In this document: in pieces, positions 4,246 through 42,623 of the stretch
Layout: each line of letters begins with the position of its first letter
Position numbering within the stretch: position 1 is the first letter of the stretch
Virus record (IMG/VR): IMGVR_UViG_3300045988_127389
Coordinates: 58,908-122,907 of that record
DNA from: a virus
Length of the DNA stretch: 64,000 bases
Reading direction: 5' to 3' (one strand)
Notes under the pieces: model-generated
Database searches by the model: none
What the model was told of the DNA's origin: nothing
What the model saw: the letters and a program-made list of their open reading frames with translations, nothing else
Program-made: the position numbers and the translations under genes

Positions 4246-4274
4246 ATTATATCATAGAAAACAAGAAAAGTCAA
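4246..4274 (-). promoter_or_regulatory. sigma70-type consensus promoter (TTGACT-17-TATAAT)
   Basis: The minus-strand read has exact -35 and -10 hexamers with a 17-nt spacer, upstream of the gene at 3210-4211. Confidence 0.6.
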
Positions 4275-4331
4275 GGGAAATCTAAAGAAAAAGACTGGAA
4301 ATTTCTTCCAGTCTTACAACCATTGGTTGTA

Positions 4332-5167: not shown

Positions 5168-5659
5168 TTACTTCTCCAATCTATGACCCAAAACATCGTA
5201 ATTATCGTAGTAACGATACATAGAAGTTACCCAAGGGCGCTTTTCAATACAGCCATCATAGAAAACGAAAGTACCAACTAAATTAGCGCCACACGAACTC
5301 AATGCCTCCCGAATTACTGCTTCTGTACGACCCATAAAGTAAGAGTCATCAATTAACACATAGTTCTCTCCATACTTTACATATTCTGAAAGGTCTAATT
5401 GTGTATTAGATTTACGTAATCCACCCGGAACAATTAAATCAACAGTAAATCCGTAGTTAAAATATGCAATACCGGTCTTTCCAGTAACAATGTATTTATA
5501 CTTATCGTGTGTGTATTTTATCTTAACATCATTGTCGATTTTTGCGAGAATTTCTTTACTTGTTCTAACAGAATCATCAAGTTGGTCAAAGAAAATCTCG
5601 CCGCCGATAAACTTTTCAAGAAGCTCGTTTACATTTATGATAGCAGTATTACAATTCAT
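5168..5659 (-). CDS. phosphoribosyltransferase-like protein
   Basis: 163 aa. The VLIDDSYFMGRT segment resembles the type-I PRTase PRPP-binding loop. Confidence 0.35.
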   Translation of the reverse strand: MNCNTAIINVNELLEKFIGGEIFFDQLDDSVRTSKEILAKIDNDVKIKYTHDKYKYIVTGKTGIAYFNYGFTVDLIVPGGLRKSNTQLDLSEYVKYGENYVLIDDSYFMGRTEAVIREALSSCGANLVGTFVFYDGCIEKRPWVTSMYRYYDNYDVLGHRLEK

Positions 5660-6303
5660 TTTATTTTTATCTTAACCTTTCCATCGTTCAGAATACGATT
5701 TTCAATTTCCTTATTTTCTAATGCAATGTCTTGCATTTTCGCAATTTCCTTGTCTTGAATACCACGCAGAACATTACGAATAGCGTTCAAGTTCGCAAGT
5801 TGTACATCAACTGTGTTTTCTGGACAAATACTTGCAATTCCTTTTTTGACAAGATGACACATTCTAAAGTAATCAATGTATGTGGCTGGATTTAAGAAAA
5901 TTTTGTTTCCGTTATTATCCATAATCGAGCATCTGACGAATACGCTCGACTCATCCTTTTCCGTAGAATTATAATAATAACTTCTACATAAATTCCCATC
6001 GCCGAAAATATTTTTTACATAGTCAAAATCTGCTCTTAACTCTTTTACGGACATGAGATGCTCGACTTGCTCAAAATCCATCTTGGGCAATAGTCTTTCA
6101 GGTTTACGTGAGCGATATTTACAAAAACTGATATACTGCGTGATGAGCGCACCAGTAGGTGTGAGCTTAATAGCTAGAAGAAATACCCAAATTGATATTC
6201 CTACCAATGTCCATGTGCTAACAATCTGGCAGTAAATACTGTACGCAATAATCGGAAAAAGAACAAAAAGTGAATAACCCCAAAATAGAACATAGCTAAT
6301 CAT
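5656..6303 (-). CDS. membrane protein
   Basis: 215 aa with N-terminal TM helices. Confidence 0.4.
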   Translation of the reverse strand: MISYVLFWGYSLFVLFPIIAYSIYCQIVSTWTLVGISIWVFLLAIKLTPTGALITQYISFCKYRSRKPERLLPKMDFEQVEHLMSVKELRADFDYVKNIFGDGNLCRSYYYNSTEKDESSVFVRCSIMDNNGNKIFLNPATYIDYFRMCHLVKKGIASICPENTVDVQLANLNAIRNVLRGIQDKEIAKMQDIALENKEIENRILNDGKVKIKIK

Positions 6304-6872
6304 TCTTTAACAACCTTCCCACCGAAATAGTCCCATTCAGAGCCGTCGGCAAAATACATCGCATCACTTATTCTTACCTTTTCTTTTAATTCAGCGTCAT
6401 CAGGTTTTGAATTAAAAAGAGCATTATAAACCATCCGGTAACAATTCATGTTAGGGCTATACTTAGGGTTACGAAAAATAGACATATCATCACCGGTAAG
6501 GTACTTCATAATCGCCGCACATACACCAGAAGAACGGCTACAACCAGCCTCGCACTGAACAATAATTTTTTCAACGTAAATTTTGTTCATCCACCCTTTG
6601 ATAAAGTTTGCTACCTCGACACCCTGTTCATCAGACATAGCAGTTTCCCATTTTGTACTAACTTCACAGTCATTAAACTGTAATCTAAGGAAATGGATAT
6701 TATTTGCAGTACAATCATCACCGGCAAGTGGTGCGCCAACATCAGTTATAGAAACTACAAGGGTTTCAACATTGTCCGGGTTCATAAGGTAATCTTCTAA
6801 CACGTAGCGGCTCATTACATTGAAATCAGGATAACTCATATTCCCCTCCTTACGAGATAGATTCATTGCCAC
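6300..6872 (-). CDS. protein tyrosine / dual-specificity phosphatase
   Basis: The VQCEAGCSRSSG segment matches the CX5R(S/T) phosphatase P-loop. Confidence 0.55.
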   Translation of the reverse strand: MAMNLSRKEGNMSYPDFNVMSRYVLEDYLMNPDNVETLVVSITDVGAPLAGDDCTANNIHFLRLQFNDCEVSTKWETAMSDEQGVEVANFIKGWMNKIYVEKIIVQCEAGCSRSSGVCAAIMKYLTGDDMSIFRNPKYSPNMNCYRMVYNALFNSKPDDAELKEKVRISDAMYFADGSEWDYFGGKVVKE

Positions 6873-7323
6873 TATCGTGCAACATACGAATCATATAAAT
6901 GTTCTCGCGGACAAGCATAAGAGTTTTGCCAAGCTGATTACGTCCAACAGTACACTCGTAATCCATACCCCAATAGCGGTCGTTCCAACCGTTACCCTCA
7001 ACCAAAGTCATACCTTTAGTTGCCAACAGTTTATCAGCCAGATTGGGATTCTGGATAAACTTTGCCATGACAATCTCAAACATTACCCTATCCTTTACGT
7101 CATCCCAATCGGAACGCAAATCGACAAGACGGCGACCTTCGCGCTTAGATTTAGAAGGGTCAAGCGTCGCAAAATACTTGCGCTTTTCAATATCCAAAGT
7201 TTTCTGTGCCTGAAAAGCCGCCTCAGAACTGCCATAAGCAATTCCATCATAAGTTACCGGACACTGATAGAAATTGCTCAAAAAGAAATACTCACCATCG
7301 AAGCGGTTAATTACATTCTCCAT
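6850..7323 (-). CDS. NADAR (YbiA/DUF1768) domain protein
   Basis: FFLSNFYQCPV...YGSSEAAFQAQK matches the NADAR family signature. Confidence 0.6.
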   Translation of the reverse strand: MENVINRFDGEYFFLSNFYQCPVTYDGIAYGSSEAAFQAQKTLDIEKRKYFATLDPSKSKREGRRLVDLRSDWDDVKDRVMFEIVMAKFIQNPNLADKLLATKGMTLVEGNGWNDRYWGMDYECTVGRNQLGKTLMLVRENIYMIRMLHDSGNESIS

Positions 7324-7335
7324 TTGTTATCTCCT

Positions 7336-7755
7336 TTAGATTAAATTACCAAGGTCTAAAAAACTATACATCGTAAGTGAAATCACAATCTGTGCTATAT
7401 GAAGCATTTGGTCTGTTGATAAACTAATTTCCAGTTTATTCGCTTTACTGTTATCAATAATCATGTGGAACACTGTATTAAACACTATGCACCATACATA
7501 TACCCACAAAGCATACCAATATCCGTTTGCGTAATAAGAATATAACGAAATTATCAACAACGGTATATGCGTTGTAAAAGACCAAGAAAAAGAATGCTCG
7601 AAAAGAGCAAATTCCCAATCATACTTATACAACTCGTTTGGGTAATTCTTTTCCCACCAAGACTTTTGCTTTAAATTTCCGAGAAGTCCTTGCAAATGAA
7701 AGTCATCAATCAAGTGTAACCAAAACATAACAAAGAAAAGGATTATATATTTCAT
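7336..7755 (-). CDS. membrane protein
   Basis: 139 aa, Trp-rich and hydrophobic. Confidence 0.4.
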   Translation of the reverse strand: MKYIILFFVMFWLHLIDDFHLQGLLGNLKQKSWWEKNYPNELYKYDWEFALFEHSFSWSFTTHIPLLIISLYSYYANGYWYALWVYVWCIVFNTVFHMIIDNSKANKLEISLSTDQMLHIAQIVISLTMYSFLDLGNLI

Positions 7756-8054
7756 CTGAAATCCTCCTTTTCAAATCCGTCTTTGTCTATCTGACCCTTT
7801 AACACAAACCATTTTACCATATTATATGTTGCGTCAACAGTCCAACAAGTTACACTCTCAATAAGTCCAAGCGGCAACCATAAAATTACAATTATAATCA
7901 CAATCAAAAACTCTGGAATGTCATCAAAACCCCAAAGGTCATACATCGTATAAATATGCTCAAGCCGACAAATGAAGTATAATGACCCAATCGCAATGTA
8001 TATTAGTACAAATATCGGAATCAAGTCCATCGCTTCGTGACACCTCCATCCCAT
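7752..8054 (-). CDS. membrane protein
   Basis: 100 aa with two TM helices. The promoter at 8061-8089 is immediately upstream. Confidence 0.4.
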   Translation of the reverse strand: MGWRCHEAMDLIPIFVLIYIAIGSLYFICRLEHIYTMYDLWGFDDIPEFLIVIIIVILWLPLGLIESVTCWTVDATYNMVKWFVLKGQIDKDGFEKEDFR

Positions 8055-8060
8055 GACTAT

Positions 8061-8089
8061 ATTATAACAAAAATACCCGGAAAAGTCAA
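8061..8089 (-). promoter_or_regulatory. sigma70-type consensus promoter
   Basis: TTGACT-17-TATAAT on the minus strand. Confidence 0.6.
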
Positions 8090-8115
8090 GTGCTTTCCGG
8101 GTAAAATTTTCAATA

Positions 8116-10098: not shown

Positions 10099-10851
10099 TT
10101 AAATATATTCTAGTGCCTTGCCAATTATAAACAATTTTTCGGTAGGATATTCACGACCAGTTGCGCTGATTGTTCTTGTAACTTTCTTTTCCCAAATACA
10201 AGTAAAATCATCTGGCATCCATTGTTCGCTAACAATGACAATATTATTCTTGCTAAGTTCCCTACAAATATCATAGAATTTATCGTAATCGAATCCCTTT
10301 GATACATCATACTTTGTAGTATTTAAGTAAGGAATATCAAAATAAAAAACTACTTCCGTCATATTAAGACCGGCCCAACACTCAAGAAAATCTGCATTTA
10401 CAAATGTGATATTTTTAAGTTTAGATGCTTGCTGTTCAAGATTTCTCTTTCCCTCTTGGTAGTAGTCACGAACTTTATCGCCATATTTAGTATGCTCAAT
10501 TACAGTGTTTGCATAACCACCATCAAAGAACTTGCCATTATAAGATGCGAGAAATCCGACATTACCAACAAGCCAGTCTGGGTAATTGCTTTTATTCTGT
10601 TTCACTTCAGTATACGTGACTTTAGATACTCTACTAAGTAATTCGCCACCGTTTCTAACATACTTCAAGAGAGCAATAAGGTACTTGTTTTTGTCAATTC
10701 CAACTCGCGTATCACACGTTATCTTGTCAATTACGTTTGCACCGCCGACAAATCCCTCAACATATATATGTACACCACTTTTATCAATAAACGACTGAAT
10801 AATCGGGCAAATGTCTTTTGCAATTCTTGCCTTGCTTCCCATATACTTCAT
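10099..10851 (-). CDS. DNA adenine methyltransferase (Dam-like; variant DIPY motif IV)
   Basis: N-terminus MKYMGSKARIA, motif I FVGGANV, and motif IV YFDIPY, a DPPY variant. Confidence 0.65.
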   Translation of the reverse strand: MKYMGSKARIAKDICPIIQSFIDKSGVHIYVEGFVGGANVIDKITCDTRVGIDKNKYLIALLKYVRNGGELLSRVSKVTYTEVKQNKSNYPDWLVGNVGFLASYNGKFFDGGYANTVIEHTKYGDKVRDYYQEGKRNLEQQASKLKNITFVNADFLECWAGLNMTEVVFYFDIPYLNTTKYDVSKGFDYDKFYDICRELSKNNIVIVSEQWMPDDFTCIWEKKVTRTISATGREYPTEKLFIIGKALEYI

Positions 10852-10855: not shown

Positions 10856-11539
10856 TCACCACCTTACTGGTTCTAAGCCATTCTCAATCAAAAACTCATT
10901 CGCTTTTGCAAAGTGACCATTCCCAAAGAAACCACGATTTGCACTTAGCGGTGACGGATGTGCAGATTCTAAGAATTTATGATTTTGATTTGTAATTAGA
11001 TTCTTTTTAGACCCTGCGTTCTTGCCCCATAATAAGTAAATGATGGGCTGGTCGTATTTTTCCAACTCTCTAATTGCGTCATCGGTCAGTATTTCCCAAC
11101 CCTGATTTGCGTGTGAAAGAGGTTCGTGTTTTCTAACTGTAAGAATTGTATTTAAGAGTAATACGCCCTGTTCTGCCCATCTTGTCAAGTCCTGCGACCA
11201 TTCACTACGCTCAACCGTTTCAGAATTAAGTTCCTTTTGAATATTTTTCAGTGAAGGAGGTGTTGGATAGACTCCATTTCTTACAGAGAATGACAACCCC
11301 ATAGCCTGTCCTTCACCGTGGTAACAATCCTGACCGATTATTACCACTTTTGTATTATGTATAGGCGTTAATTCAAACGCCTTAAAAATATCTTGCATCG
11401 GTGGATATACAGTTTTTGTTGCGTATTCTTGTATAAGAAATCTTTTTAGATTTTTATAAAACGGTTTTTGCTGCTCTATATCAAAGAACGATTGCCAATC
11501 GTTTCCAATGTTAATCATCGACATCCTCCATAATCCCAT
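10856..11539 (-). CDS. ung: uracil-DNA glycosylase (family 1)
   Basis: GQDCYH (GQDPYH-type) and HPSPLS motifs. Confidence 0.75.
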   Translation of the reverse strand: MGLWRMSMINIGNDWQSFFDIEQQKPFYKNLKRFLIQEYATKTVYPPMQDIFKAFELTPIHNTKVVIIGQDCYHGEGQAMGLSFSVRNGVYPTPPSLKNIQKELNSETVERSEWSQDLTRWAEQGVLLLNTILTVRKHEPLSHANQGWEILTDDAIRELEKYDQPIIYLLWGKNAGSKKNLITNQNHKFLESAHPSPLSANRGFFGNGHFAKANEFLIENGLEPVRW

Positions 11540-12186: not shown

Positions 12187-12215
12187 ATTATAACAAAACC
12201 CCTTGAATTTGTCAA
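12187..12215 (-). promoter_or_regulatory. sigma70-type consensus promoter with AAACCCC upstream flank
   Basis: CAAACCCCTTGACA-17-TATAAT. Confidence 0.6.
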
Positions 12216-23702: not shown

Positions 23703-23731
23703 ATTATATCAAATTTTTTGAAATTTGTCAA
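23703..23731 (-). promoter_or_regulatory. sigma70-type consensus promoter
   Basis: AAAACCACTTGACA-17-TATAAT, upstream of the Sak4-like gene. Confidence 0.6.
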
Positions 23732-24417
23732 GTGGTTTTTGAAAATAATTTTTCAGTTTTGTAGACTCGGCCTTGCCGCACATCTACCTGTCTTGCAATC
23801 TGCTTAGACCAAACACAAGCAAAATCATTAGGAGCAGTCTCTTCGCTTACAAGGACAGTACACCTTTTTGAAAGCTCTCTGACATACTCCCAAAACGCTT
23901 CATGGTCAAAATCACCAGTAGAATATCCAGTAGTTCCTTTATATGGTGGGTCTAAATACACGACCGAACCATTCGGGATTGATACATCTCGATAATCACC
24001 ACACAAGAACTCCGCATTCTTTAAACCGTTTAGGTCACGATAAATACTGTGACTTGCACCAGCACAAAAATCTTCGCCGCGCTTATTTCTTGCAAGACCA
24101 CCAAACCACTTACCAGAATAACTACACGCAAAACCAACATATCCGGTCAATCCGGGGTCTTCATCTTTGTGCGCTTTCACGTAATCGTATGTTGACTTCG
24201 TGATTTTATCCGGTAACTGCCTTCCGGCCTGAACATCTCGCCACATGGCGATTAGATATGGATGCGCGTCATTAAGAATTTTGCGATTCGCATTGACACG
24301 CGACTCAATAGAACAGCTCCCGCAAAATAAAGATATAAAATCACGATTTCCTATCACTGAATTGATATAATCTGAAATATCTTTTGCGATTCTGCTCTTA
24401 CCACCTAAATATCTCAT
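23728..24417 (-). CDS. DNA adenine methyltransferase (Dam-like)
   Basis: MRYLGGKSRIA, FCGSCS and DPPY motifs. Confidence 0.7.
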   Translation of the reverse strand: MRYLGGKSRIAKDISDYINSVIGNRDFISLFCGSCSIESRVNANRKILNDAHPYLIAMWRDVQAGRQLPDKITKSTYDYVKAHKDEDPGLTGYVGFACSYSGKWFGGLARNKRGEDFCAGASHSIYRDLNGLKNAEFLCGDYRDVSIPNGSVVYLDPPYKGTTGYSTGDFDHEAFWEYVRELSKRCTVLVSEETAPNDFACVWSKQIARQVDVRQGRVYKTEKLFSKTT

Positions 24418-25986: not shown

Positions 25987-26061
25987 TGGAGCGTCATATT
26001 GGAGTCGAACCAATCTAAAAGAGATTTGCAGTCTCTCGCCTAGCCGTCTGGCGCATGACGC
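25987..26061 (-). tRNA. tRNA-Cys(GCA)
   Basis: Hand-folded cloverleaf. Anticodon loop is CTGCAAA, T-arm is GGTTCGACTCC, and CCA is encoded. Confidence 0.7.
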
Positions 26062-26187
26062 ACATTTGCAATTTAGGTTTTGCGAACCACACATCGAGCG
26101 TATACTCCGTTAAATCCCCTTGTGATACAATCACTCCGAGACGGTTTTGTAACACCGTATGCTCTATTTTGTTCATCTTTACGGTCG

Positions 26188-26278
26188 TGGCGTGGTAGAA
26201 GGGATTTGAACCCCTGCACGGTATACGCCGCCTACTTGCTTTCCAAGCAAGCCCCTTCAACCTCTTGGGTACTACCAC
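26188..26278 (-). tRNA. tRNA-Ser(GGA), long variable arm
   Basis: 91 nt. Acceptor GTGGTAG pairs with CTACCAC, anticodon loop is TTGGAAA, CCA is encoded. Confidence 0.65.
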
Positions 26279-26402
26279 ATATTATGCCTTGATTACTAAA
26301 GGCATAACGCGAGTATCGTTGCATCCAGCGGTTTCATACCTAGTGAATACACGATATTTTCTATCGGATTTCAAAATATCTTTATAATACTTCAAAAATA
26401 AG

Positions 26403-26479
26403 TGGTGTTTCCAGAATGAATTGAACATTCGACCTCAATCTTATCAGGATTGCGCTCTAACCAACTGAGCTATGGAAAC
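26403..26479 (-). tRNA. tRNA-Ile(GAT)
   Basis: Canonical D-arm AGCTCAGTTGGTTAGAGC, anticodon loop CTGATAA, CCA encoded. Confidence 0.7.
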
Positions 26480-26480
26480 A

Positions 26481-26506
26481 TAAATTGCTGTCTTTCCAGC
26501 AGTCAT
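26481..26506. repeat. 26-nt direct repeat TAAATTGCTGTCTTTCCAGCAGTCAT (copy 1) immediately 5' of tRNA-Ile
   Basis: Identical copy at 28121-28146, 5' of tRNA-Arg(ACG). Contains the hairpin TGCTG-N6-CAGCA. Confidence 0.6.
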
Positions 26507-26627
26507 CGGTTTATCCGCGATGTGCTTGTTCCTTAACACAAACACGGCATACTGTCATATCACGTATTTACTATATTTTTTACGAATACCAGCTACAATA
26601 GTCGCAACTCGAAAACTACTTACCGCG

Positions 26628-26704
26628 TGGTGCGCCCGAAGAGATTTGAACTCCCGACCCATCGCTTAAAAGGCGATTGCTCTAACCAACTGAGCTACGA
26701 ACGC
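26628..26704 (-). tRNA. tRNA-Lys(TTT)
   Basis: Anticodon loop CTTTTAA, T-arm GAGTTCAAATCTC, CCA encoded. Confidence 0.7.
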
Positions 26705-26842
26705 AAATGAAAGCACGAATACCCGCCCACGTGCATGGTACTTGCTCTTCTGTCTTGTCAGTACCTCCCAAGTCCATTAACTCTATGGACACGGTAGTTA
26801 AAATACTTGCCTATACCTATTCTACCACGGCATAGGTGCGAT

Positions 26843-26918
26843 TGGAGCCACCTGTAGGAATCAAACCTACGACGTATGCGGTACGAACGCATCATTCTAT
26901 CTACTGAATTAAAGTGGC
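26843..26918 (-). tRNA. tRNA-Thr(CGT)
   Basis: Anticodon loop TTCGTAC, CCA encoded. Confidence 0.6.
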
Positions 26919-26919
26919 A

Positions 26920-27007
26920 TGGAGCCAGTGACAGGACTTGAACCTGCGAGAACCCTTTCGGCATCGGGATTACAAAACCCGCGTTCTACCAACTGAACTA
27001 CACTGGC
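26920..27007 (-). tRNA. type-II tRNA (long variable arm), anticodon region ambiguous (TGT or GTA)
   Basis: 88 nt with good acceptor, D and T arms. The anticodon stem closes with a T.T mismatch and the loop can be read as 9 nt (TTTTGTAAT). Confidence 0.45.
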
Positions 27008-27124
27008 AAATCTAAAAGACACATTAAAAATTGAATAACACATAGATGGATAATCGGACGAATACTTTTACTCAAGTTTTAATATAAATGGCTGGATGTG
27101 TCTTTGCATATATAAAAAGGAGGG

Positions 27125-27346
27125 TTATTTTCTTACCTTCATATCTAACATGGTAAGCCTATCTTCACGCCTGAAAGAAATTATATCGTACCATTTTTCT
27201 AAGGTGTATTTTAGCTGTCTAAGCTCACTATCGGTGAACTTCTCGCGTTCATCTCTTAGATATAAAGTAACAATTCCATTTTCTTCGCCAATCTTTAGTC
27301 GGGAAATCTTGCTCATAATATTATCACTAGCAACTTCACCCAACAT
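27125..27346 (-). CDS. hypothetical small protein inside the tRNA cluster
   Basis: 73-aa ORF of charged, protein-like composition. Confidence 0.35.
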   Translation of the reverse strand: MLGEVASDNIMSKISRLKIGEENGIVTLYLRDEREKFTDSELRQLKYTLEKWYDIISFRREDRLTMLDMKVRK

Positions 27347-27417
27347 TTGAAAGAAAGCAATAGGGTCATTTTCAATCTACTGCATCTGATTCACGTCCCT
27401 TCTTTTTAGATTTCTAA

Positions 27418-27530
27418 TGGCTGCGTATGGAGTCGAACCATAAACATCGTCCTTATAATGGAAAAATGTGTAGCTGTTACTATCTAAAATAGATAGGCTT
27501 TACGCGCTCTGCCAATTGAGCTACACAGCC
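27418..27530 (-). ncRNA. tRNA-like RNA with ~37-nt internal insertion (113 nt)
   Basis: Perfect acceptor (GGCTGTG pairs with CGCAGCC, followed by ACCA), canonical D-arm and T-arm (GGTTCGACTCC). About 62 nt, including the hairpin CTATCTATTTTAGATAG, replaces the anticodon and variable arms. Confidence 0.45.
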
Positions 27531-27625
27531 ATAATGGTGAGTTTAAGGTCACTCAACCGCAAATTAAGTTTTTGTTTTGTCCACAGCAGGACTGACAGGA
27601 CTTGTTTAGCTTATAAACTGTCGTA

Positions 27626-27701
27626 TGGTGCGAAATACAAGACTCGAACTTGTAACTTCTACCTTGTAAAAGTAGCACTCTTCCAGTTGAGTTAATCTCG
27701 C
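27626..27701 (-). tRNA. tRNA-Val(TAC)
   Basis: Anticodon loop TTTACAA, CCA encoded. Confidence 0.6.
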
Positions 27702-27832
27702 ATAATAAATACAGTAGTCGGGGTCGAACCGACATCTTCGCCTTGGCTTTTAAGAAAAATAATTGCGGCTTATGTCTGTATAGACACATTCTTATTTTGG
27801 CGATGTTTTACCATTGAAACCATACCGTATTC

Positions 27833-27918
27833 TGGTGTGCATGGTGGGACTTGAACCCACAATGTCTTTCGACACTGCCATCTCAAAGCAGCTCCTATGC
27901 CAATTCGGATACACGCAC
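27833..27918 (-). tRNA. tRNA-Leu(GAG), long variable arm
   Basis: Anticodon loop TTGAGAT, variable-arm hairpin TGTCGAAAGACA, CCA encoded. Confidence 0.6.
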
Positions 27919-28040
27919 ATATAAATGTCGGCTTACGCACTCTCATGAGTTAGCATCGTCACCGATAATCAGGGATACTGTCATAACAGTCACCCATAAA
28001 AGGCTTCCCTTTGTCCAGCGTAATTTGAGACTCATTTATC

Positions 28041-28117
28041 TGGTACGGCAGACAAGACTTGAACTCGCAACCTATCGGTTCGTAGCCGATTGTTCTATCC
28101 AATTGAACTACTGCCGC
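28041..28117 (-). tRNA. tRNA-Arg(ACG)
   Basis: Anticodon loop CTACGAA, CCA encoded. Confidence 0.7.
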
Positions 28118-28120
28118 ATA

Positions 28121-28146
28121 TAAATTGCTGTCTTTCCAGCAGTCAT
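28121..28146. repeat. 26-nt direct repeat (copy 2) immediately 5' of tRNA-Arg(ACG)
   Basis: Exact match to 26481-26506. Confidence 0.6.
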
Positions 28147-28256
28147 TGTTAGCCTATCCAACAATTCCCGGACTTTTATAGCTATACGCTGTTATCCAAA
28201 CCGAAAAATGGGTATTATTATGTCAGTAAGATATTGTTTTGGTAATTAGCTAAAAA

Positions 28257-28898
28257 TTATACATCACTCCACTCGCCATCTGTATATTTCTTAATGTCAG
28301 ATGTACGATATGGAAGATTATATCTTTTACACCAATTTCTAATACAGTTATCTGAAACTCCACATATAGATGCGATATGCTTAAATGGCATATTTCTAAT
28401 CATGGATTTAAGCGTGTCTCTATCTATCATATTCGGATTTGCCGTTTCTTCATATTGCTTCAAGTTTCTACACCTTAAACATCTCACAGCCCTATCCGAT
28501 ATGGCACATCCGCAATCAACACATCTATTATATGCTTTTTCATATACATTTTGTTGTTCTTCTATCACATTACGAACATCTGCTCCAACAATTTTATCAA
28601 AAGTAAAGTCATCAACAAATGTAGAAGCTGTAGTTTGATTGTTCTTTGCACGTTCTTTTCTAATCTTTATCTGAATCCTATTCCCTATGTAACTTGTTGG
28701 AATTATAACAGCAACATCCCATACATATATGTAAAATGCCATATAATCAACATCATTAACATATAATTCTCTATGCTTACTTTTTGTTAATGGATTTACT
28801 ATATTAGAACATGGACAGCTTATCGAACCATCAACTATTTGTTGATTGCAGAACTTTATCTGTATCTTATTCAGCTTTCCATTAAATTCCGCTATCAT
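28257..28898 (-). CDS. putative homing-endonuclease-like DNA-binding protein (C-terminal HTH, central Cys4 cluster)
   Basis: 213-aa ORF inserted in the tRNA array. The C-terminal segment (...ICGVSDNCIRNWCKRYNL) resembles the HTH of phage homing endonucleases. A CVDCGC...CLRCRN zinc finger is also present. Confidence 0.35.
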   Translation of the reverse strand: MIAEFNGKLNKIQIKFCNQQIVDGSISCPCSNIVNPLTKSKHRELYVNDVDYMAFYIYVWDVAVIIPTSYIGNRIQIKIRKERAKNNQTTASTFVDDFTFDKIVGADVRNVIEEQQNVYEKAYNRCVDCGCAISDRAVRCLRCRNLKQYEETANPNMIDRDTLKSMIRNMPFKHIASICGVSDNCIRNWCKRYNLPYRTSDIKKYTDGEWSDV

Positions 28899-29026
28899 AT
28901 CATAGCGTTCATTATCGCCGTAAGGTATTGAAACTGGTATTCCTCTCTAAACAAATTCATATAAAATACGCGACTCTGCAATATTGCCTTTCATCTTTGA
29001 ATTTACCATATTCATACCCCATTTAT

Positions 29027-37780: not shown

Positions 37781-39043
37781 TTAATTACAGTTGGCAGTAT
37801 ATCTAGCATCTTCACCAGCGCCAAGATAACGAGAAACAAAATTCGGTAACGATGCAAAATTTTCAGAGATAACGTTTGCGAAATCAATTACACCAGTCAC
37901 GCTTTCACGTCCATCCATAATATAATGAATTTTCTTATTATCGCACTGGTCAACAGCGTTGATGACAAACGATAAGTTGAAGTCTCCTTCAACAAATTGT
38001 GTCACGCTCAGGTCACGCATAACGCGACCAACAAACCTATCAACGTCAAACATAGCATATCTGATGCTACCTTGCCATTCGTTGTGTACGTTTGTATTAT
38101 CAATAATTTTTGTGCTTAGATTATTTACATCAGTCTCACCCGGAAGAATACCAGCACCATGTCGAGTTGTATACCAACGTGTAGTATAACAAATCTCAAT
38201 GTCGAACTCGTCCATACTCTTTACATCGAAACCATCTAAAACATTAAAATCTGAACTGAGTCCGGTATATGTCGGAGTCGTATTCTCGCCCTGCTCGTAG
38301 TATTTCTGCGAAATTGCAAGCCCCTGCGCATTTTCAAGCACAATCCGCTTATATTTTGCGCTAAGTTCAGTTTTAGTGAACTTTTTTACCGTAACGTGTT
38401 TGATAAAGAAAGCTAAGTCGCTCAAGAAAGACAACACATAATCTTTCTCAAAATTGTTGATGAACTGCTCCGGGATGTCACGGCCATCAAGAACCTCATG
38501 TAAACGCGCAGGAACGTAATCCATACAAATAATATCCAACTTTTCTGCAATCGGAATCCAATCGTTTTCTTCGTTTGCTTTCTGAATTTCTCTTACAGTA
38601 ATTGCATATTTTGGCTCTCTACTACGAATAATAGCTTCATAAACGCCAAGACCACAAGAACCGAAACGACCATCTCCAAGCGCAGTTTCCCAACACTGGT
38701 TAATTAAAGCGTCCCAAGGCGTAGCAATGAAACAGTTTTCATCAACATATACATTCGGAGTAAAACCAAGTTCACGCAGTTCATCCCACTCCGTAGAAAA
38801 TACCATAGGATTTACCTGAAAAATTTCACTGATAATAGTATCAGCACCGTTCATAGTTCCAGAACCGAAATGATGAAAAATGTGACGCTTATCTCCCTTT
38901 ACAACAGTATGACCTCGCTGTGCTCCTCCATTTGTGAGCACGACCGCCATATCGCCGTTCTTGCATTCACGAGTAAAGTAGTCAACAGTTCTACCTTTCC
39001 CCTCGTCACCATACTGTGCGCCAATCACAATCTTAATGTCCAT
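37781..39043 (-). CDS. adenylosuccinate synthetase homologue (PurA/PurZ family)
   Basis: GAQYGDEGKGR P-loop and NGGAQRGHTV segment match PurA. The start is trimmed to the Met downstream of the promoter at 39078-39106, which has an AGGAGGG RBS. Confidence 0.7.
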   Translation of the reverse strand: MDIKIVIGAQYGDEGKGRTVDYFTRECKNGDMAVVLTNGGAQRGHTVVKGDKRHIFHHFGSGTMNGADTIISEIFQVNPMVFSTEWDELRELGFTPNVYVDENCFIATPWDALINQCWETALGDGRFGSCGLGVYEAIIRSREPKYAITVREIQKANEENDWIPIAEKLDIICMDYVPARLHEVLDGRDIPEQFINNFEKDYVLSFLSDLAFFIKHVTVKKFTKTELSAKYKRIVLENAQGLAISQKYYEQGENTTPTYTGLSSDFNVLDGFDVKSMDEFDIEICYTTRWYTTRHGAGILPGETDVNNLSTKIIDNTNVHNEWQGSIRYAMFDVDRFVGRVMRDLSVTQFVEGDFNLSFVINAVDQCDNKKIHYIMDGRESVTGVIDFANVISENFASLPNFVSRYLGAGEDARYTANCN

Positions 39044-39077
39044 ATAAACCCTCCTGTCAAGCATCTTTGACATCATT

Positions 39078-39106
39078 ATTATATCATAGACGCTAGGAAA
39101 AGTCAA
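39078..39106 (-). promoter_or_regulatory. sigma70-type consensus promoter upstream of PurA/PurZ-like gene
   Basis: AAACCCCTTGACT-17-TATAAT. Confidence 0.6.
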
Positions 39107-39123
39107 GGGGTTTTGCAAAATAA

Positions 39124-39148
39124 AAAGCGTGGATTTCTCCACGCTAAA
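39124..39148 (-). terminator. terminator hairpin (GCGTGGATTTCTCCACGC)
   Basis: The same hairpin recurs at 63785-63802, each time with a T-run on the minus strand. Confidence 0.5.
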
Positions 39149-39158
39149 TCGTTAGATT

Positions 39159-40121
39159 TTAGAACTCGACCAAGCCATTGACTGCGGTAGCAGTGTTATT
39201 TCCAGTTGTTACCAGTCCTTCGAGGGCCTTACGGACAACGATTCCAGTAGAACCATCCCAGCTATTACAGATATCGTCAATATCCTTGCCAGCCAGTGCT
39301 TCCAGAATGGAAACAACGATTTCAGCAATCTTGTTATAGTCTGACACATGGACTGCACGTTCGCCCAGAAGTTCACCAAAGCTGTCATCGACAAGGCTTG
39401 TATCGTGATAACGATAACGATTAGAATAGTAGTTGCCCTGCTCGATAATCAGATGAAAAACATCCCAATCACGACTAACTGCATTCAGCAGCTCTTCGGA
39501 ACTAATGCTATCCTCTTCGATAGTAGTTCCAAACACCTTCTGAATCTGCTTACGAGTAAGCTTATCAGGACACGGCTCGTCACCCATAGTAATCAAAATA
39601 CCCTTCTTATGACGCTTTTCAATTGCATCCGCACTAACATAATTGGTTGCAAAATACCAAGGAAGCGTATAAGACTCCTGACTATTGCCACCACCGTTTC
39701 CTTCATACCATACCTTCTGCAAAGCCTCTGCAATGCGAATGTCGCTCTCAAACTGGCTTACCTGAAGCGGTGCGCGGTCATAGTCAGCATCACCAACAGC
39801 CATAAAGCAAACCTGCGGGTCAGTAATGGAACCACGATTGTAAATCTCCTGCATCAGAGTATTCAAATTCATGATGACAGAACGCAGAACAGGCGACATA
39901 GAACCAGTAACATCAAGAGCAATGATAATAGGTGTACTGTTCGGATTATCATTGCTGTCACGAGATTCACGAACAGTAATGTTCTTCGGATTCATGTCAT
40001 CAGGCATAGCCGTAGACTGATACAAACTGGACGAACCGCCGCCAGAAACACTCGTCTTGTTAGTGACATTGCGTGTAGAGTAGCTATCCCAGCTAGATGC
40101 GTCCCAATGAGAATATCCCAT
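39159..40121 (-). CDS. von Willebrand factor A domain protein
   Basis: MIDAS DVTGSM with a downstream vWA-like fold pattern. Confidence 0.55.
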   Translation of the reverse strand: MGYSHWDASSWDSYSTRNVTNKTSVSGGGSSSLYQSTAMPDDMNPKNITVRESRDSNDNPNSTPIIIALDVTGSMSPVLRSVIMNLNTLMQEIYNRGSITDPQVCFMAVGDADYDRAPLQVSQFESDIRIAEALQKVWYEGNGGGNSQESYTLPWYFATNYVSADAIEKRHKKGILITMGDEPCPDKLTRKQIQKVFGTTIEEDSISSEELLNAVSRDWDVFHLIIEQGNYYSNRYRYHDTSLVDDSFGELLGERAVHVSDYNKIAEIVVSILEALAGKDIDDICNSWDGSTGIVVRKALEGLVTTGNNTATAVNGLVEF

Positions 40122-40137
40122 ATTTTTCTCCTTATAA

Positions 40138-41151
40138 TTAAACTTTAATTTTACCCATTTCTGGATTCATTTTTGTAAACGTGCGTTTTCCAAATGCCGC
40201 ATCAAGCGACATTTCCCATCTTTTCATTTCTGTAGGCGGGTATTCACCAGACCCAGTTCTTAGCCATATCATAATCTGGTCTGGAACTGTTGCGTCTGAA
40301 ATTTTTGAAGTGCATCCAAGCAACTTAATCCCAAGCATCTTAATACATTCCATATCAGTGCTTTTCTTAGATTTCTTGTTGCGCTTCGCAGACGGAGGCA
40401 TAACATCATACACTTCGCTGCTAACACCAATCATCTTCGTATCAACAGGGCGTGTATACCACCATCCACCGTATAACATAACTCCATGTTTTTCAATATC
40501 AACAAAACAACTGTTAATGTCAATACCATTATGAACAACATTGTTATACGACAAAAAGCAAGCAAGATTAAGTAAGCGTGAAATTACCCAAGCTGTGTGC
40601 TTAATAGGAATCTTATTATTGAAATTATTCCATACCTCAGAAAGAGGAACACAACCATGTTCACGTTTAATGATAATCACACACTCGTCATTATTCTCGA
40701 AATTTTGAACAATATGCGGCAATGCGTAATCAACACTCTGCATCATATCTCTAGGGCACGAAAACCTAATTGAAGTAATATAGTTATCATAATACTTCTT
40801 ATACTGCCTTGGAATGACATATACAATATGGTTATTACATAAATACATCTTCCCAAGTTCAAAACCGTACTCTTTCAGATACGATACGATAAGCGTTTTA
40901 CCGTTCGGTTTGTTTAAACGAATCTTATTAGATTCTTCCCATGTACCTCTAGCGATTAAACCTGTGGCCTTTTCATAGAGCATCACAATTTTCGAGGTTA
41001 CTTCTTGATAAGTCATCTCGCCATTGTGAAAATCTGGATGAAACATCTTTAAGTATTCACGATACTCTGCCTTTAAAATTGAAGGGTTGTTCGTAAATAC
41101 GTCATCTACAGACATCGCTTTTAATACATCATCGACTGTCTTACACTTCAC
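40138..41151 (-). CDS. hypothetical protein with J-domain-like HPD motif
   Basis: N-terminal EYLKMFHPDFHNGE resembles DnaJ J-domain helix II/III. The remainder is unassigned, with a weak kinase-like HNGIDIN segment. Confidence 0.35.
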   Translation of the reverse strand: MKCKTVDDVLKAMSVDDVFTNNPSILKAEYREYLKMFHPDFHNGEMTYQEVTSKIVMLYEKATGLIARGTWEESNKIRLNKPNGKTLIVSYLKEYGFELGKMYLCNNHIVYVIPRQYKKYYDNYITSIRFSCPRDMMQSVDYALPHIVQNFENNDECVIIIKREHGCVPLSEVWNNFNNKIPIKHTAWVISRLLNLACFLSYNNVVHNGIDINSCFVDIEKHGVMLYGGWWYTRPVDTKMIGVSSEVYDVMPPSAKRNKKSKKSTDMECIKMLGIKLLGCTSKISDATVPDQIMIWLRTGSGEYPPTEMKRWEMSLDAAFGKRTFTKMNPEMGKIKV

Positions 41152-41174
41152 TCTATCCCTCCGTTTCTGTTGCT

Positions 41175-41203
41175 ATTATACACCCAAAATCTCGGATTGT
41201 CAA
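41175..41203 (-). promoter_or_regulatory. sigma70-type consensus promoter
   Basis: AAACCACTTGACA-17-TATAAT. Confidence 0.6.
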
Positions 41204-41231
41204 GTGGTTTCACTAAAAAATATGCACAATT

Positions 41232-42038
41232 TTACTCTTTTGCCTTATCGCAATTTTGGTCAAAATCACGGTACAGGATGTACTTCTTTACGACACCATT
41301 AGCAAATGAAATAGCATCAAACCAATTAGGAACACTTGGCTCATCTTTTGTCGGTGGTTCAATGATTTTAGTTTTATCAAAAAACTGCCCACTATCAAGA
41401 ACGCCGCTCTTTACATTGCCGATAAAACATCTTTCAGACAAATCGGCAATGTAAAATTCTGGGCACGCTTTTAGCCGTGCATTATCTTTGTTCATAAGCT
41501 GATTATAGAGATTCTTTAATCGCAACGCTTCATACATCCGCTTCGACTGTCTTTTCACCTCATCGTCTGCACAAGAGTTTCTTTCATAGTCATTTAAGAT
41601 ATTGTGAATAGCACCATATACTGCGTTCTGATAGTGCCACAAATACCTTTCGTAAATTTCCTGTCTGACATTATAAAAATCCCTAAAAGAGTCATCCACA
41701 ATAACATAATCAGAAAATAGTGCTTCAAGATTAACAAAACTGCCCTTTGCCAGCTGTTTTGCGAAATCACGAATATCCATCAGTTTTACCTGACCATCAT
41801 CATAGGTATCAGGTGAAAACTCTGTTGATGTCAATGTCTTTACTTCCGTCTTACCACTAATTAACCCATCAAGTGAAGGCATAGTAGCCATTACGCAATC
41901 AATGTCCGAATCGCTATCATCAAGGCCATAATTCTGACTACCAAACAACCCGACAAAAGCTACCTTGCATTTTCTATTTAGTTCAATATATTCTTTTCTA
42001 AACTTTAATTTCGCTAAGATTCTCTGGTGTTTACCCAT
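41232..42038 (-). CDS. Pol-beta superfamily nucleotidyltransferase
   Basis: GLFGSQNYGLDDSDSDID matches the GS...G...SDxD NTase signature. Confidence 0.55.
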   Translation of the reverse strand: MGKHQRILAKLKFRKEYIELNRKCKVAFVGLFGSQNYGLDDSDSDIDCVMATMPSLDGLISGKTEVKTLTSTEFSPDTYDDGQVKLMDIRDFAKQLAKGSFVNLEALFSDYVIVDDSFRDFYNVRQEIYERYLWHYQNAVYGAIHNILNDYERNSCADDEVKRQSKRMYEALRLKNLYNQLMNKDNARLKACPEFYIADLSERCFIGNVKSGVLDSGQFFDKTKIIEPPTKDEPSVPNWFDAISFANGVVKKYILYRDFDQNCDKAKE

Positions 42039-42399: not shown

Positions 42400-42623
42400 T
42401 TTTTACCGCCAATCTTGAAATGTCTCACATAATATGTGAAGCGTTCATTAAATTCTTCTTCGGTTAATTCTTTGTTAAAAATAACTTTCATTAGATTTGA
42501 TATTGTCATTTTATAATGACCATCAAAAGAAAACTCTGTAATATCGCATTCAGCATTAACGAAATAAATTACTTCGCCATTATTTATCTTATTTACCAAC
42601 TGCTCGTAGGTATAATATGCCAT
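42396..42623 (-). CDS. hypothetical protein (75 aa)
   Basis: ORF. Confidence 0.35.
   Translation of the reverse strand: MAYYTYEQLVNKINNGEVIYFVNAECDITEFSFDGHYKMTISNLMKVIFNKELTEEEFNERFTYYVRHFKIGGKK

What the first reader, a model, noticed from the sequence alone, without database searches (positions are those of the whole stretch)
6850..7323. NADAR-domain protein: candidate anti-DarT (DNA ADP-ribosylation reversal) factor
The NADAR signature is clear (FLSNFY...YGSSEAAFQAQK). NADAR proteins have been shown to reverse ADP-ribosylation of guanine in DNA made by DarT-type toxins. A phage-borne copy next to a CX5R phosphatase could be a counter-defence gene.
Basis: partly seen in the sequence, partly recalled or inferred. 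Interest (0 to 1): 0.55.

Follow-up and report, generated by a model that had tools for sequence, protein, structure and literature searches.

The report
Phage NADAR ADP-ribose-removing enzyme gene
This is an intact gene for a NADAR enzyme in an uncultivated gut phage, of a kind that other phages use to strip ADP-ribose "poison marks" off their DNA; it is a credible but ordinary new member of a published counter-defence family.

Summary
Window 6850..7323 (-) encodes a 157-aa NADAR protein (Pfam PF08719, E=2e-27). Its predicted fold is confident (pLDDT 94.7) and matches E. coli YbiA and the Phytophthora NADAR–ADP-ribose complex. Every published catalytic and ADP-ribose-binding residue is present: S16, E34, K41, K60, R64, W73, E109, D115, W118.

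The gene lies in the replication and nucleotide-metabolism module of an uncultivated phage of about 100 kb. Its regulatory signals suggest a Firmicutes-type host. The closest characterised relative (46.5% identity) is the T5-like phage NADAR AdfN-Bas32, which was shown to neutralise DarT1 and rescue phages from DarTG1. Phage NADARs as anti-DarTG1 factors are already published, and homologues occur in 580 phage records. So this is a new member of a known kind.

Three caveats apply:
- NADARs reverse guanine (DarT1-type) ADP-ribosylation, not thymine (DarT2-type).
- The nearest cellular homologues sit in NAD-salvage and RNA-repair operons, not next to DarT.
- The host and its defences are unknown.

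The one mildly new feature is a conserved, probably translationally coupled pairing with a CX5R DSP-fold phosphatase. This pairing is restricted to this phage lineage and its function is unknown.

The parts
6850..7323 (-). NADAR gene, 157 aa. It is the core YbiA-like fold only, with no N-terminal extension. Predicted ADP-ribosyl N-glycohydrolase with S16, E34, K41, K60, R64, W73, E109, D115 and W118, and an intact C-terminal helix 130-155.
7331..7336 (-). Shine-Dalgarno AAGGAG for the NADAR gene. It overlaps the stop codon of the upstream ORF.
   Evidence: read directly from the sequence
6300..6839 (-). CX5R cysteine phosphatase with a DSP/PTP fold, 179 aa counted from ATG 6839. P-loop C96-EAGCS-R102-S; candidate general acid D57. 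Substrate unknown.
6845..6851 (-). Shine-Dalgarno AAGGAGG of the phosphatase. It overlaps the NADAR TAA stop (6850-6852), which suggests translational coupling of the two genes.
   Evidence: read directly from the sequence
8061..8089 (-). Near-consensus sigma-70/sigma-A promoter (TTGACT, 17 nt, TG-n-TATAAT). It is the putative start of the transcription unit that contains the NADAR gene. It is one of 13 such promoters in the window.
   Evidence: consensus match only
8074..8103 (-). Terminator-like hairpin (11-bp stem plus T-run) after thyX, overlapping the promoter above.
7752..8054 (-). First ORF of the unit, 100 aa, hydrophobic, no family match.
7336..7755 (-). 139-aa predicted membrane protein (phrog_2470), immediately upstream of the NADAR gene.
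5656..6303 (-). 215-aa ORF with a hydrophobic N-terminus and no family match. It is absent at this position in the closest relatives (L002), so it is a variable insert in the cassette.
5168..5659 (-). 163-aa ORF, conserved downstream of the pair in close relatives. It has a type-I PRTase-like PRPP motif (YVLIDDSYFMGRT). The only match is not significant (OPRT domain of 3qw4, E=1.8).
4291..4315 (-). Terminator-like hairpin that closes the putative nine-gene unit. The next consensus promoter lies at 4274..4246.

Best explanation
The gene encodes a catalytically competent, minimal (core-only) Glu-type NADAR. This is an ADP-ribosyl N-glycohydrolase that cleaves the bond between ADP-ribose C1'' and an exocyclic amino nitrogen of a nucleobase. 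The known substrate is guanine N2. By analogy with other Glu-type NADARs, cytosine is also likely, on single-stranded DNA and RNA.

The gene appears to be transcribed from a host-type consensus promoter, together with small membrane proteins and a CX5R phosphatase. Its most likely role is an orphan-antitoxin-like counter-defence enzyme of the AdfN type. It would erase ADP-ribose marks that a host DarT1-type or other guanine/cytosine-directed ADP-ribosyltransferase places on replicating phage DNA, and so restore replication.

Shown here: domain, fold, complete active site, phage context, and relatedness to a validated anti-DarTG1 NADAR. Inferred: enzymatic activity, substrate, timing of expression, and the existence of a matching defence in the unknown host.
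For: - Domain: Pfam NADAR E=2e-27.
- Fold: confident model matching YbiA (TM 0.83) and the PnNADAR-ADPr complex (TM 0.73).
- Active site: the profile alignment to 8bau maps E34=E43, K41=K50, E109=E125, K60=K75, R64=R79, W73=W89, D115=D130 and W118=W133. Except for R64, all of these are invariant in both homologue alignments, of 26 and 45 sequences. The equivalents of E and K are essential in E. coli C7 DarG1 and T4 AdfN, and the Glu equivalent of E109 is essential in SCO5665 (PMC11543638, PMC11825919, PMC12945103).
- The C-terminal helix, whose loss inactivates RB69 AdfN, is intact.
- Nearest characterised relative: the T5-like NADAR (phage BB1), 46.5% identity, E=3e-35. It matches the AdfN-Bas32 cloning primers with 0 and 1 mismatches. 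AdfN-Bas32 neutralises DarT1 in vivo and rescues three phages on DarTG1 (PMC11257639, PMC11825919).
- A profile of the window clade scores Bas32-like 164 bits, YbiA 130, PnNADAR 75, Bas60 31 and T4 AdfN 23.
- Homologues occur in 580 phage records.
- Expression signals: a consensus host-type promoter upstream and a strong SD.
Against: - No biochemical or genetic test was possible.
- The host is unknown, so it is not known whether it carries DarT1 or any guanine/cytosine ADP-ribosyltransferase.
- Among the 80 nearest cellular loci there is no recurrent DarT neighbour. Instead there are 22 NMNAT-NADAR fusions, 6 NADAR-Macro fusions, and operons for NAD salvage and RNA repair.
- E. coli YbiA (41% identity to this protein) hydrolyses G-ADPr in vitro but did not rescue DarT1 toxicity in cells (PMC11125620). 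Catalytic competence therefore does not guarantee an antitoxin-like function in vivo.
- NJ bootstrap support is weak. Window+Bas32 excluding YbiA was recovered in 39 of 100 replicates, against 10 of 100 for window+YbiA excluding Bas32.
- Iyer et al. 2022 (PMC9503650) argued that most phage NADARs target soluble ADP-ribose derivatives.
Confidence: 0.55

Rival explanations
1. The NADAR acts on low-molecular-weight NAD+/ADP-ribose derivatives rather than on nucleic acids. It would either clean up or recycle NAD-derived by-products during infection, or destroy N-glycosidically linked ADP-ribose immune signals. The adjacent cysteine phosphatase would process a phosphorylated product.
For: Nearest cellular homologues (50-59% identity) are fused to NMNAT-like cytidylyltransferase domains (22 of 80 loci) or Macro domains (6 of 80). 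Some lie in NrtR-PncA-Prs-like-NAMPT-like-NADAR-Macro operons. Iyer et al. 2022 predict this role for most phage NADARs and describe Cys-phosphatase (DUF4326 / rhodanese-phosphatase superfamily) fusions to NADAR, Macro and SLOG domains. The NADAR-phosphatase pair is conserved and probably translationally coupled. Two phosphatase homologues weakly match Pfam PTP-NADK.
Against: No soluble ADP-ribose substrate has been demonstrated for any NADAR in the papers read. All tested NADARs, including YbiA-type, act on base-linked ADPr in nucleic acids. No NAD-salvage gene was found in the parts of the window I scanned. The phosphatase is not DUF4326, and none of its 149 nearest representative relatives is fused to NADAR.
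Confidence: 0.2
2. The NADAR is an accessory of the phage's RNA-repair machinery. It would remove base-linked ADP-ribose from tRNA or mRNA, or process by-products of RNA-end healing, and so counter RNA-targeting defences.
For: Eight of the 80 cellular loci carry the operon methyltransferase - RNA ligase - HD/AAA_33 kinase - NMNAT-NADAR. Three carry CCA-adding enzyme-NADAR. The window itself encodes an AAA_33 kinase+HD protein, RlaP, an RNA ligase, PIN-PhoH, Thg1-like, PTH2 and 13 tRNAs. NADARs remove G-ADPr and C-ADPr from RNA (PMC11833690, PMC12945103).
Against: In this window the NADAR lies about 30 kb from the RNA ligase and kinase genes, in a different transcription unit. NADARs are inactive on phosphate-end and 2'-OH RNA ADP-ribosylation (PMC11833690). 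No KptA/Tpt1 was found among the scanned ORFs.
Confidence: 0.12
3. It is a housekeeping-type YbiA/COG3236 N-glycosidase that destroys reactive riboflavin-pathway intermediates. On this view it is an auxiliary metabolic gene with no role in conflict.
For: TIGR02464 'riboflavin biosynthesis intermediates N-glycosidase' scores 77.7 bits, just above its 73.7 cut-off. The protein is 41% identical to E. coli YbiA and has the YbiA-type Glu at the third catalytic position. The gene sits in a nucleotide-metabolism region.
Against: The TIGR02464 score does not discriminate. Validated anti-DarTG1 Bas60 scores 109 bits, and YbiA itself scores 169.5. No riboflavin gene or RibA/RibD fusion was seen here or in the related loci. 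There is no evident benefit to a lytic phage.
Confidence: 0.05
4. It provides self-immunity. The NADAR would protect phage nucleic acids from an ADP-ribosyltransferase encoded by the phage itself for host takeover.
For: In T4-like phages, NADARs are early genes encoded near ARTs (PMC9503650). T4 30.3 lies about 3 kb from alt.
Against: No ART domain was detected in any window ORF I scanned. Many small ORFs and the rest of the genome were not examined.
Confidence: 0.04

Closest known systems
AdfN-Bas32 (NADAR of T5-like Markadamsvirinae phages Bas32/Bas33; Johannesman, Carlson & LeRoux, Nat Commun 2025, PMC11825919)
   Same: Both are phage-encoded, stand-alone, core-only NADARs of about 150 aa. 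They share 46.5% identity over 144 residues, and the Ser/Glu/Lys/Glu/Asp/Trp active-site set is the same. Both lie in an early/nucleotide-metabolism region next to thymidylate synthase genes. In the unbootstrapped NJ tree the two fall in the same large clade, together with Methanobrevibacter NADARs.
   Different: The phage lineage and presumed host differ: Firmicutes-type signals here, Enterobacteria there. Here the gene is coupled to a CX5R phosphatase, which the T5-like locus lacks. The clade has weak bootstrap support. No functional data exist for this protein.
E. coli YbiA (PDB 2B3W; riboflavin-intermediate N-glycosidase; G-ADPr and C-ADPr hydrolase in vitro)
   Same: Best structural match (TM 0.83). 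41% identity. Glu at the third catalytic position.
   Different: YbiA is chromosomal, in a LexA-controlled operon with dinG/ybiB (PMC11125620). It did not rescue DarT1 toxicity in vivo. It scores 169.5 bits on TIGR02464, against 77.7 here.
T4 AdfN (gp30.3; Pfam PF08010)
   Same: Both are phage orphan NADARs with the core fold only. The E/K pair is conserved (E36/K43 in T4, E34/K41 here). There is a weak PF08010 match (E=8.7e-6, below its cut-off).
   Different: Only 27% identity. T4-type enzymes have His at the third catalytic position and remove only G-ADPr. T4 AdfN works preferentially in the T-even (hydroxymethyl-C DNA) context.
DarG1 (DarT1-associated BC4488-type NADAR antitoxin; G. lovleyi, PDB 8BAT)
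   Same: Same superfamily and the same reaction, hydrolysis of guanine-ADPr.
   Different: There is no adjacent DarT. The catalytic residue is Glu, not Asp. The N-terminal beta-beta-alpha DNA-binding extension is absent. TM is only 0.49, and the clade profile did not detect it in the PDB at E<=0.01.
NADAR fusions and neighbourhoods with Cys-phosphatases of the rhodanese-phosphatase superfamily (DUF4326) described by Iyer, Burroughs, Anantharaman & Aravind 2022 (PMC9503650)
   Same: An ADP-ribose-processing domain is paired with a metal-independent CX5R-type phosphatase in a DNA virus.
   Different: Here the phosphatase is a separate gene with a DSP/PTP fold. Its Pfam DSPc match is weak and there is no DUF4326 match. 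The functional link is only inferred from synteny within one phage lineage.

Membership tests
NADAR superfamily (Pfam PF08719 / DUF1768) | Significant match to the family HMM above its gathering score | tested here: met
   E=2e-27, 96.8 bits against a cut-off of 35.1, nearly full-length
NADAR superfamily (Pfam PF08719 / DUF1768) | Alpha-helical core flanked by small beta-hairpins (YbiA-like fold) | tested here: met
   AF2 pLDDT 94.7. Foldseek TM 0.83 to 2b3w and 0.73 to 8bau.
NADAR superfamily (Pfam PF08719 / DUF1768) | Conserved Ser, Glu and Lys of the substrate channel, plus the ADPr-phosphate/ribose ligands | tested here: met
   S16, E34, K41, K60, W73, E109, D115 and W118 are invariant in 45 homologues. 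These residues, and R64, align to PnNADAR E43, K50, K75, R79, W89, E125, D130 and W133.
NADAR superfamily (Pfam PF08719 / DUF1768) | ADP-ribosyl N-glycohydrolase activity | not testable with these tools
   Needs an enzyme assay.
AdfN (phage anti-DarT factor NADAR) | Encoded by a phage as an orphan NADAR, with no cognate DarT toxin | tested here: met
   Phage context is shown. The neighbours in the operon are membrane proteins and a phosphatase. No ART or DarT was detected in the scanned ORFs, but not every small ORF was scanned.
AdfN (phage anti-DarT factor NADAR) | Catalytic Glu and Lys (T4 E36/K43) required for counter-defence | tested here: met
   E34 and K41 are present with the same 7-residue spacing.
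AdfN (phage anti-DarT factor NADAR) | Homology to an experimentally validated AdfN | tested here: met
   46.5% identity, E=3e-35, to the Bas32-type NADAR, identified by its primers. Identity is only 27% to T4 AdfN and 31% (partial) to Bas60.
AdfN (phage anti-DarT factor NADAR) | Neutralises DarT1 / restores plaquing on DarTG1 hosts | not testable with these tools
   Needs a genetic assay.
AdfN-T4 subtype (Pfam PF08010 Phage_30_3) | His at the third catalytic position and a match above the PF08010 gathering score | tested here: not met
   The residue at that position is Glu109. PF08010 scores 26 bits against a cut-off of 36.
DarG1 (BC4488-type NADAR antitoxin) | Adjacent DarT1 gene; Asp at the third catalytic position; N-terminal beta1-beta2-alpha1 extension | tested here: not met
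   No DarT neighbour. Glu109 instead of Asp. The protein is a 157-aa core only. TM to 8bat is 0.49. No PADLOC DarG hit; only PDC-M42C.
YbiA / COG3236 riboflavin-intermediate N-glycosidase (TIGR02464) | Score above the NCBIfam cut-off | tested here: inconclusive
   77.7 bits against a cut-off of 73.7. The model is not specific: anti-DarTG1 Bas60 scores 109, the Bas32-like protein 65.9, and YbiA 169.5.
YbiA / COG3236 riboflavin-intermediate N-glycosidase (TIGR02464) | Association or fusion with riboflavin biosynthesis genes (RibA/RibD) | tested here: not met
   None in the window ORFs scanned or in the related loci.
DSP/PTP-fold cysteine phosphatase (neighbouring gene) | C-X5-R-(S/T) P-loop, an upstream general-acid Asp, and a DSP fold | tested here: met
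   C96-EAGCS-R102-S is invariant, and D57 is conserved in at least 90% of sequences. CX5R[ST] is present in 149 of 149 representative relatives. Foldseek finds the DSP/PTP fold (Tk-PTP, DUSPs, PTPMT1) with prob 1.0 and TM 0.45-0.54.
DSP/PTP-fold cysteine phosphatase (neighbouring gene) | Pfam DSPc match above the gathering score | tested here: not met
   24.7 bits against a cut-off of 33.5. The weak DSPc match is seen in 13 of 13 homologues.

The most novel reading that the evidence does not exclude
The conserved, probably translationally coupled NADAR-CX5R phosphatase pair is a two-enzyme eraser module. The NADAR cuts the N-glycosidic bond of an ADP-ribose (or phosphoribosyl) adduct or signal. 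The DSP-fold phosphatase removes a phosphate from that substrate or product, for example ADPr-1''/2''-phosphate or a phosphoribosyl remnant. Together they would give this gut-phage lineage resistance to a Firmicutes ADP-ribosylation-based or ADPr-signal-based defence that a NADAR alone cannot handle.
Probability: 0.1. Interest if true: 0.6.

Novelty: new member of a known kind. Interest (0 to 1): 0.27.

Why it matters
If the protein works like AdfN-Bas32, it extends enzymatic anti-DarT1-type counter-defence from coliphages to an abundant, uncultivated lineage of gut phages of about 100 kb with Firmicutes-type signals. That would imply that nucleic-acid ADP-ribosylation is a relevant defence in gut anaerobes. 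Because it is a Glu-type NADAR, it may erase both guanine- and cytosine-linked ADP-ribose on DNA and RNA, a broader range than T4 AdfN or DarG1. The practical value is modest. It is one more candidate anti-defence gene for phage engineering, and the phosphatase pairing is a small lead. The concept itself is already published, and NADAR genes are common in large phages.

Tried and rejected
- Megablast of window 1-25000 against 50,697 phage records found nothing, so no known phage could be used for annotation transfer.
- I tried to obtain the reference NADAR alignments from paper supplements. None is held as sequence text; only accession lists are available. I rebuilt the references from phage and E. 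coli records using the primer sequences.
- E. coli C7 and G. lovleyi DarG1 sequences could not be retrieved. DarG1 was therefore compared only by fold and by the failure of the clade profile to detect it.
- The NJ tree with 100 bootstraps did not resolve the window clade relative to YbiA (39, 10 and 51% for the three outcomes). An earlier run had a numerical fault and was discarded. I therefore do not claim a robust 'Bas32/archaeal-type' clade.
- TIGR02464 was rejected as a discriminator between riboflavin-type and anti-DarT NADARs.
- I tested whether the phosphatase is generally linked to NADAR. Its family is large: 1,900 representative clusters at E<=1e-10. None of the top 149 is fused to NADAR, none of the 79 cellular NADAR loci has it, and only one other phage locus (L007) has a distant homologue, about 2 kb away. 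A general linkage is rejected. Linkage is lineage-specific.
- The 163-aa ORF was searched against the PDB. Only a non-significant PRTase-motif match was found.
- The PurA-like protein matched only ordinary PurA structures, and only over its N-terminus. Whether it is a PurZ was left open.
- Literature searches for the distribution of DarT1 in Firmicutes/Clostridia found nothing usable.
- The Bacteroidales label of the MAG contig L018 was rejected as a host assignment, because the window uses sigma-A-type promoters and Shine-Dalgarno sites.
Full report
**1. Observation**

It runs at 6850..7323 on the minus strand, from an ATG to a TAA stop, and encodes 157 aa. An AAGGAG ribosome-binding site lies 7 nt upstream. 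The quoted motifs FLSNFY and YGSSEAAFQAQK are residues 14-19 and 30-41.

The protein matches Pfam PF08719 (NADAR) with E=2e-27 and 96.8 bits against a cut-off of 35.1, nearly end to end. It also matches PHROG phrog_1017 with E=1.9e-43. An AlphaFold2 model built on 45 homologues is confident (pLDDT 94.7, pTM 0.88). Its only significant PDB neighbours are NADARs:
- E. coli YbiA, 2b3w: TM 0.83.
- Phytophthora NADAR bound to ADP-ribose, 8bau: TM 0.73.
- The DarT1-associated Geobacter NADAR, 8bat: TM 0.49, much weaker.

**2. Active site**

Three papers define the functional residues: Schuller et al. 2023 (PMC11543638), Johannesman et al. 2025 (PMC11825919) and Mikolcevic et al. 2026 (PMC12945103).
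- A Glu positions the distal ribose (Pn E43, EcC7 E88, T4 E36).
- A Lys binds the diphosphate (Pn K50, EcC7 K95, T4 K43).
- A third acidic or His residue differs by family: Glu in the NADAR and YbiA families (Pn E125, Sco E167), Asp in DarG1, His in T4-type phage NADARs.
- Additional ligands are K75, R79, W89, D130 and W133, plus a conserved Ser.

A profile alignment to 8bau maps these onto E34, K41, E109, K60, R64, W73, D115 and W118. All of these except R64, and also S16, are invariant across 26 and 45 homologues.

The protein is therefore a Glu-type NADAR. It consists of the core fold only. It lacks the N-terminal extension of DarG1, and it keeps the C-terminal helix whose loss inactivates RB69 AdfN (PMC11257639). 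According to PMC12945103, Glu-type NADARs remove both G-ADPr and C-ADPr from DNA and RNA, whereas Asp- and His-type enzymes remove only G-ADPr. No NADAR tested removes T-ADPr, phosphate-end ADPr or 2'-OH ADPr (PMC11125620, PMC11833690).

**3. Genomic setting**

The window has 38.6% GC and is densely packed with minus-strand genes. It encodes:
- DnaE-type polymerase, primase-helicase, SSB, two ligases, ThyX, FolD and dUTPase;
- a UDG-family protein and two Dam-like methyltransferases;
- PhoH, an RNA ligase, an AAA_33 kinase-HD protein and Phage_gp49_66;
- 13 tRNAs.

Megablast finds no known phage. The primase-helicase is at best 38% identical to uncultured human-faecal phages. The closest NADARs (88% and 79% identity) lie on metagenomic contigs of about 102 kb, and one of 19 kb, with the same gene order.

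The window contains thirteen near-perfect TTGACA/T-N16-18-TATAAT promoters, most of them with an extended -10 TG. Twelve are co-oriented with the genes. GGAG/GAGG Shine-Dalgarno cores precede 31 of 50 genes. These signals point to a Firmicutes-type host rather than Bacteroidota, even though one related contig is binned in a Bacteroidales MAG (L018).

The NADAR gene lies in a putative nine-gene unit. The unit starts at a promoter at 8089..8061, which overlaps a terminator hairpin after thyX. It ends at a terminator at 4315..4291. These are consensus matches only, not evidence of function.

**4. Closest characterised relative**

tblastn finds homologues in 580 phage records. Among them are the T5-like phages. 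The gene in phage BB1 matches the primers used to clone AdfN-Bas32, with one mismatch in the forward primer and none in the reverse.

| Reference | Identity to the window protein | Score against the window-clade profile, bits |
|---|---|---|
| BB1 / AdfN-Bas32-like | 46.5% (E=3e-35) | 164 |
| E. coli YbiA | 41% | 130 |
| Phytophthora NADAR | 32% | 75 |
| Bas60 | 31% (partial) | 31 |
| T4 AdfN | 27% | 23 |

An NJ tree puts the window lineage and the Bas32-type protein in one large clade with clostridial, Synergistetes and Methanobrevibacter NADARs. Bootstrap support for excluding YbiA from that clade is weak, 39 of 100 replicates, so I do not rely on the tree.

AdfN-Bas32 and AdfN-Bas60 neutralise DarT1 in uninfected cells. 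They rescue three phages on DarTG1 by several logs, but do not rescue on DarTG2 (PMC11257639, PMC11825919). YbiA is active in vitro but did not protect against DarT1 in vivo (PMC11125620).

The TIGR02464 'riboflavin' model is matched just above its cut-off (77.7 against 73.7). This is uninformative, because Bas60 scores 109 on the same model.

**5. Context of the cellular relatives**

A scan of 185,579 species genomes returned 334 relatives. The best 80 are 50-59% identical and are mostly from Clostridia, with some from Synergistetes and Methanobrevibacter. Clustering their neighbours and annotating them with Pfam showed:
- 22 NMNAT-like (CTP_transf_like)-NADAR fusions;
- 6 NADAR-Macro fusions;
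- a recurrent NrtR-PncA-Prs-like-NAMPT-like-NADAR-Macro operon;
- a recurrent methyltransferase-RNA ligase-HD/AAA_33 kinase-NMNAT-NADAR operon.

No DarT-like neighbour recurs. This fits the original 'NAD and ADP-ribose' contextual definition of the family. It keeps two rival roles alive: processing of soluble ADP-ribose derivatives, as predicted for most phage NADARs by Iyer et al. 2022 (PMC9503650), and RNA repair.

**6. The phosphatase**

The downstream gene most probably starts at ATG 6839. Its AAGGAGG site overlaps the NADAR stop codon, which suggests translational coupling. It carries an invariant C-X5-R-S P-loop and a conserved Asp57. It folds as a DSP/PTP phosphatase. It gives only sub-threshold Pfam matches: DSPc in 13 of 13 homologues, the Rit1 DUSP-like domain in 13 of 13, and PTP-NADK in 2 of 13.

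The NADAR-then-phosphatase order is kept in every relative of this phage lineage. This includes divergent ones (NADAR 57%, phosphatase 56-61% identity) whose flanking genes differ.

Outside the lineage the link disappears:
- The phosphatase family is large, with 1,900 representative clusters at E<=1e-10.
- None of the top 149 representatives is fused to NADAR.
- None of the 79 cellular NADAR loci contains it.
- Only one other phage locus (L007) has a distant homologue, about 2 kb away.

The pairing is a lineage-specific lead, not evidence of function.

**7. Verdict**

The most likely function is an AdfN-like ADP-ribosyl N-glycohydrolase that erases guanine-linked, and probably cytosine-linked, ADP-ribose from phage nucleic acid as a counter-defence (confidence about 0.55). 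I put the probability that it is an active base-ADPr hydrolase in vitro higher, at about 0.85. The specific link to DarT1 is less certain because the host is unknown.

Phage NADARs as anti-DarTG1 factors are published, and NADAR genes are common in large phages: 27% of myoviruses according to PMC9503650, and 580 records here. The finding is therefore a new member of a known kind and of modest interest. The phosphatase coupling is its only unusual feature.

Noticed in passing
window 25987..31179 (-): An array of 13 tRNA genes. It is interrupted by small ORFs, including a PD-(D/E)XK+HTH homing-endonuclease-like gene (28257..28898) and a Thg1-like tRNA-His guanylyltransferase (29729..30514).
   Followed up: partly
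window 35608..43809 (-): An RNA-repair-looking gene set: PIN-PhoH (35608..36813), AAA_33 kinase + HD (36863..37774), RlaP-type nucleotidyltransferase (41232..42038) and an RNA ligase with a PHA02142 OB domain (42688..43809). Further on are PTH2 peptidyl-tRNA hydrolase (44515..44916), YqeY (45302..45736) and a metallophosphoesterase (45739..46437).
   Followed up: partly
window 37781..39076 (-): A divergent adenylosuccinate-synthetase-like gene (Pfam E=2.6e-28). PDB matches cover only the N-terminal ~150 aa of ordinary PurA enzymes. Whether it is a PurZ-type enzyme (2-aminoadenine genome) was not resolved. This would matter because 2-aminoadenine, like guanine, carries an N2 amino group.
   Followed up: partly
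window, 13 sites (e.g. 4274..4246, 8089..8061, 12215..12187, 23731..23703, 29701..29673, 39106..39078, 52603..52631): Near-perfect sigma-70/sigma-A promoters, TTGACA/T-N16-18-TATAAT. Most have a TG extended -10 and a shared 'aaaacc(c/a)c' upstream element. Twelve of the 13 are on the minus strand, and several directly follow terminator hairpins. Chance would give far fewer.
   Followed up: partly
window 31227..34314 (-): An SPFH/flotillin-like protein (509 aa) lies next to a DUF2828/DUF7788 vWA (TROVE-like) protein (499 aa). This is an unusual pair for a phage replication region.
   Followed up: no
window 5168..5659 (-): A 163-aa ORF conserved downstream of the NADAR-phosphatase pair. It has a type-I phosphoribosyltransferase-like PRPP-binding motif (YVLIDDSYFMGRT). 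The only match is not significant (OPRT domain of UMP synthase, E=1.8).
   Followed up: partly
L031, L045, L054 (partial in L050, L061, L064, L094): Ruminococcus and other Clostridia carry a conserved operon: NrtR - PncA - Prs-like - NAMPT-like - NADAR-Macro fusion. The Prs-like plus NAMPT-like pair resembles the phage NARP1 (Adps/Namat) NAD+ reconstitution pathway.
   Followed up: partly
L024, L025, L053, L068, L075, L082, L090, L096: Clostridia carry a conserved operon: methyltransferase - RNA ligase - HD/AAA_33 kinase - NMNAT-NADAR fusion. Lachnoclostridium sp. An131 has two NADAR copies about 5 kb apart (L025 and L068).
   Followed up: partly
L009 5001..5441: A chromosomal Ruminococcus sp. 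homologue (P0020, 59% identity) sits inside an arginine-biosynthesis operon, between genes with AA_kinase (ArgB-like) and Aminotran_3 (ArgD-like) Pfam domains.
   Followed up: no
L018 (CAKUYO010000064.1): An 8.2-kb contig with the same NADAR-phosphatase cassette (91% and 88% identity) is binned in an 'uncultured Bacteroidales' MAG from a Hadza sample. It is probably a mis-binned phage fragment, given the sigma-A promoters and Shine-Dalgarno usage of the window.
   Followed up: partly
window 6850..7323 (protein level): The NADAR also matches defence-side models: NCBIfam NF053876 'DS32_2 NADAR family anti-phage protein' (46.8 bits, far below its 240 cut-off) and PADLOC PDC-M42C (E=1.6e-15). NADAR domains are thus used on both sides of the phage-host conflict.
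   Followed up: no
window 10099..10851 and 23728..24417 (-): Two separate D12-class (Dam-like) N6-adenine DNA methyltransferase genes, plus a UDG-superfamily gene (10856..11539). These are possible anti-restriction or DNA-modification functions.
   Followed up: no
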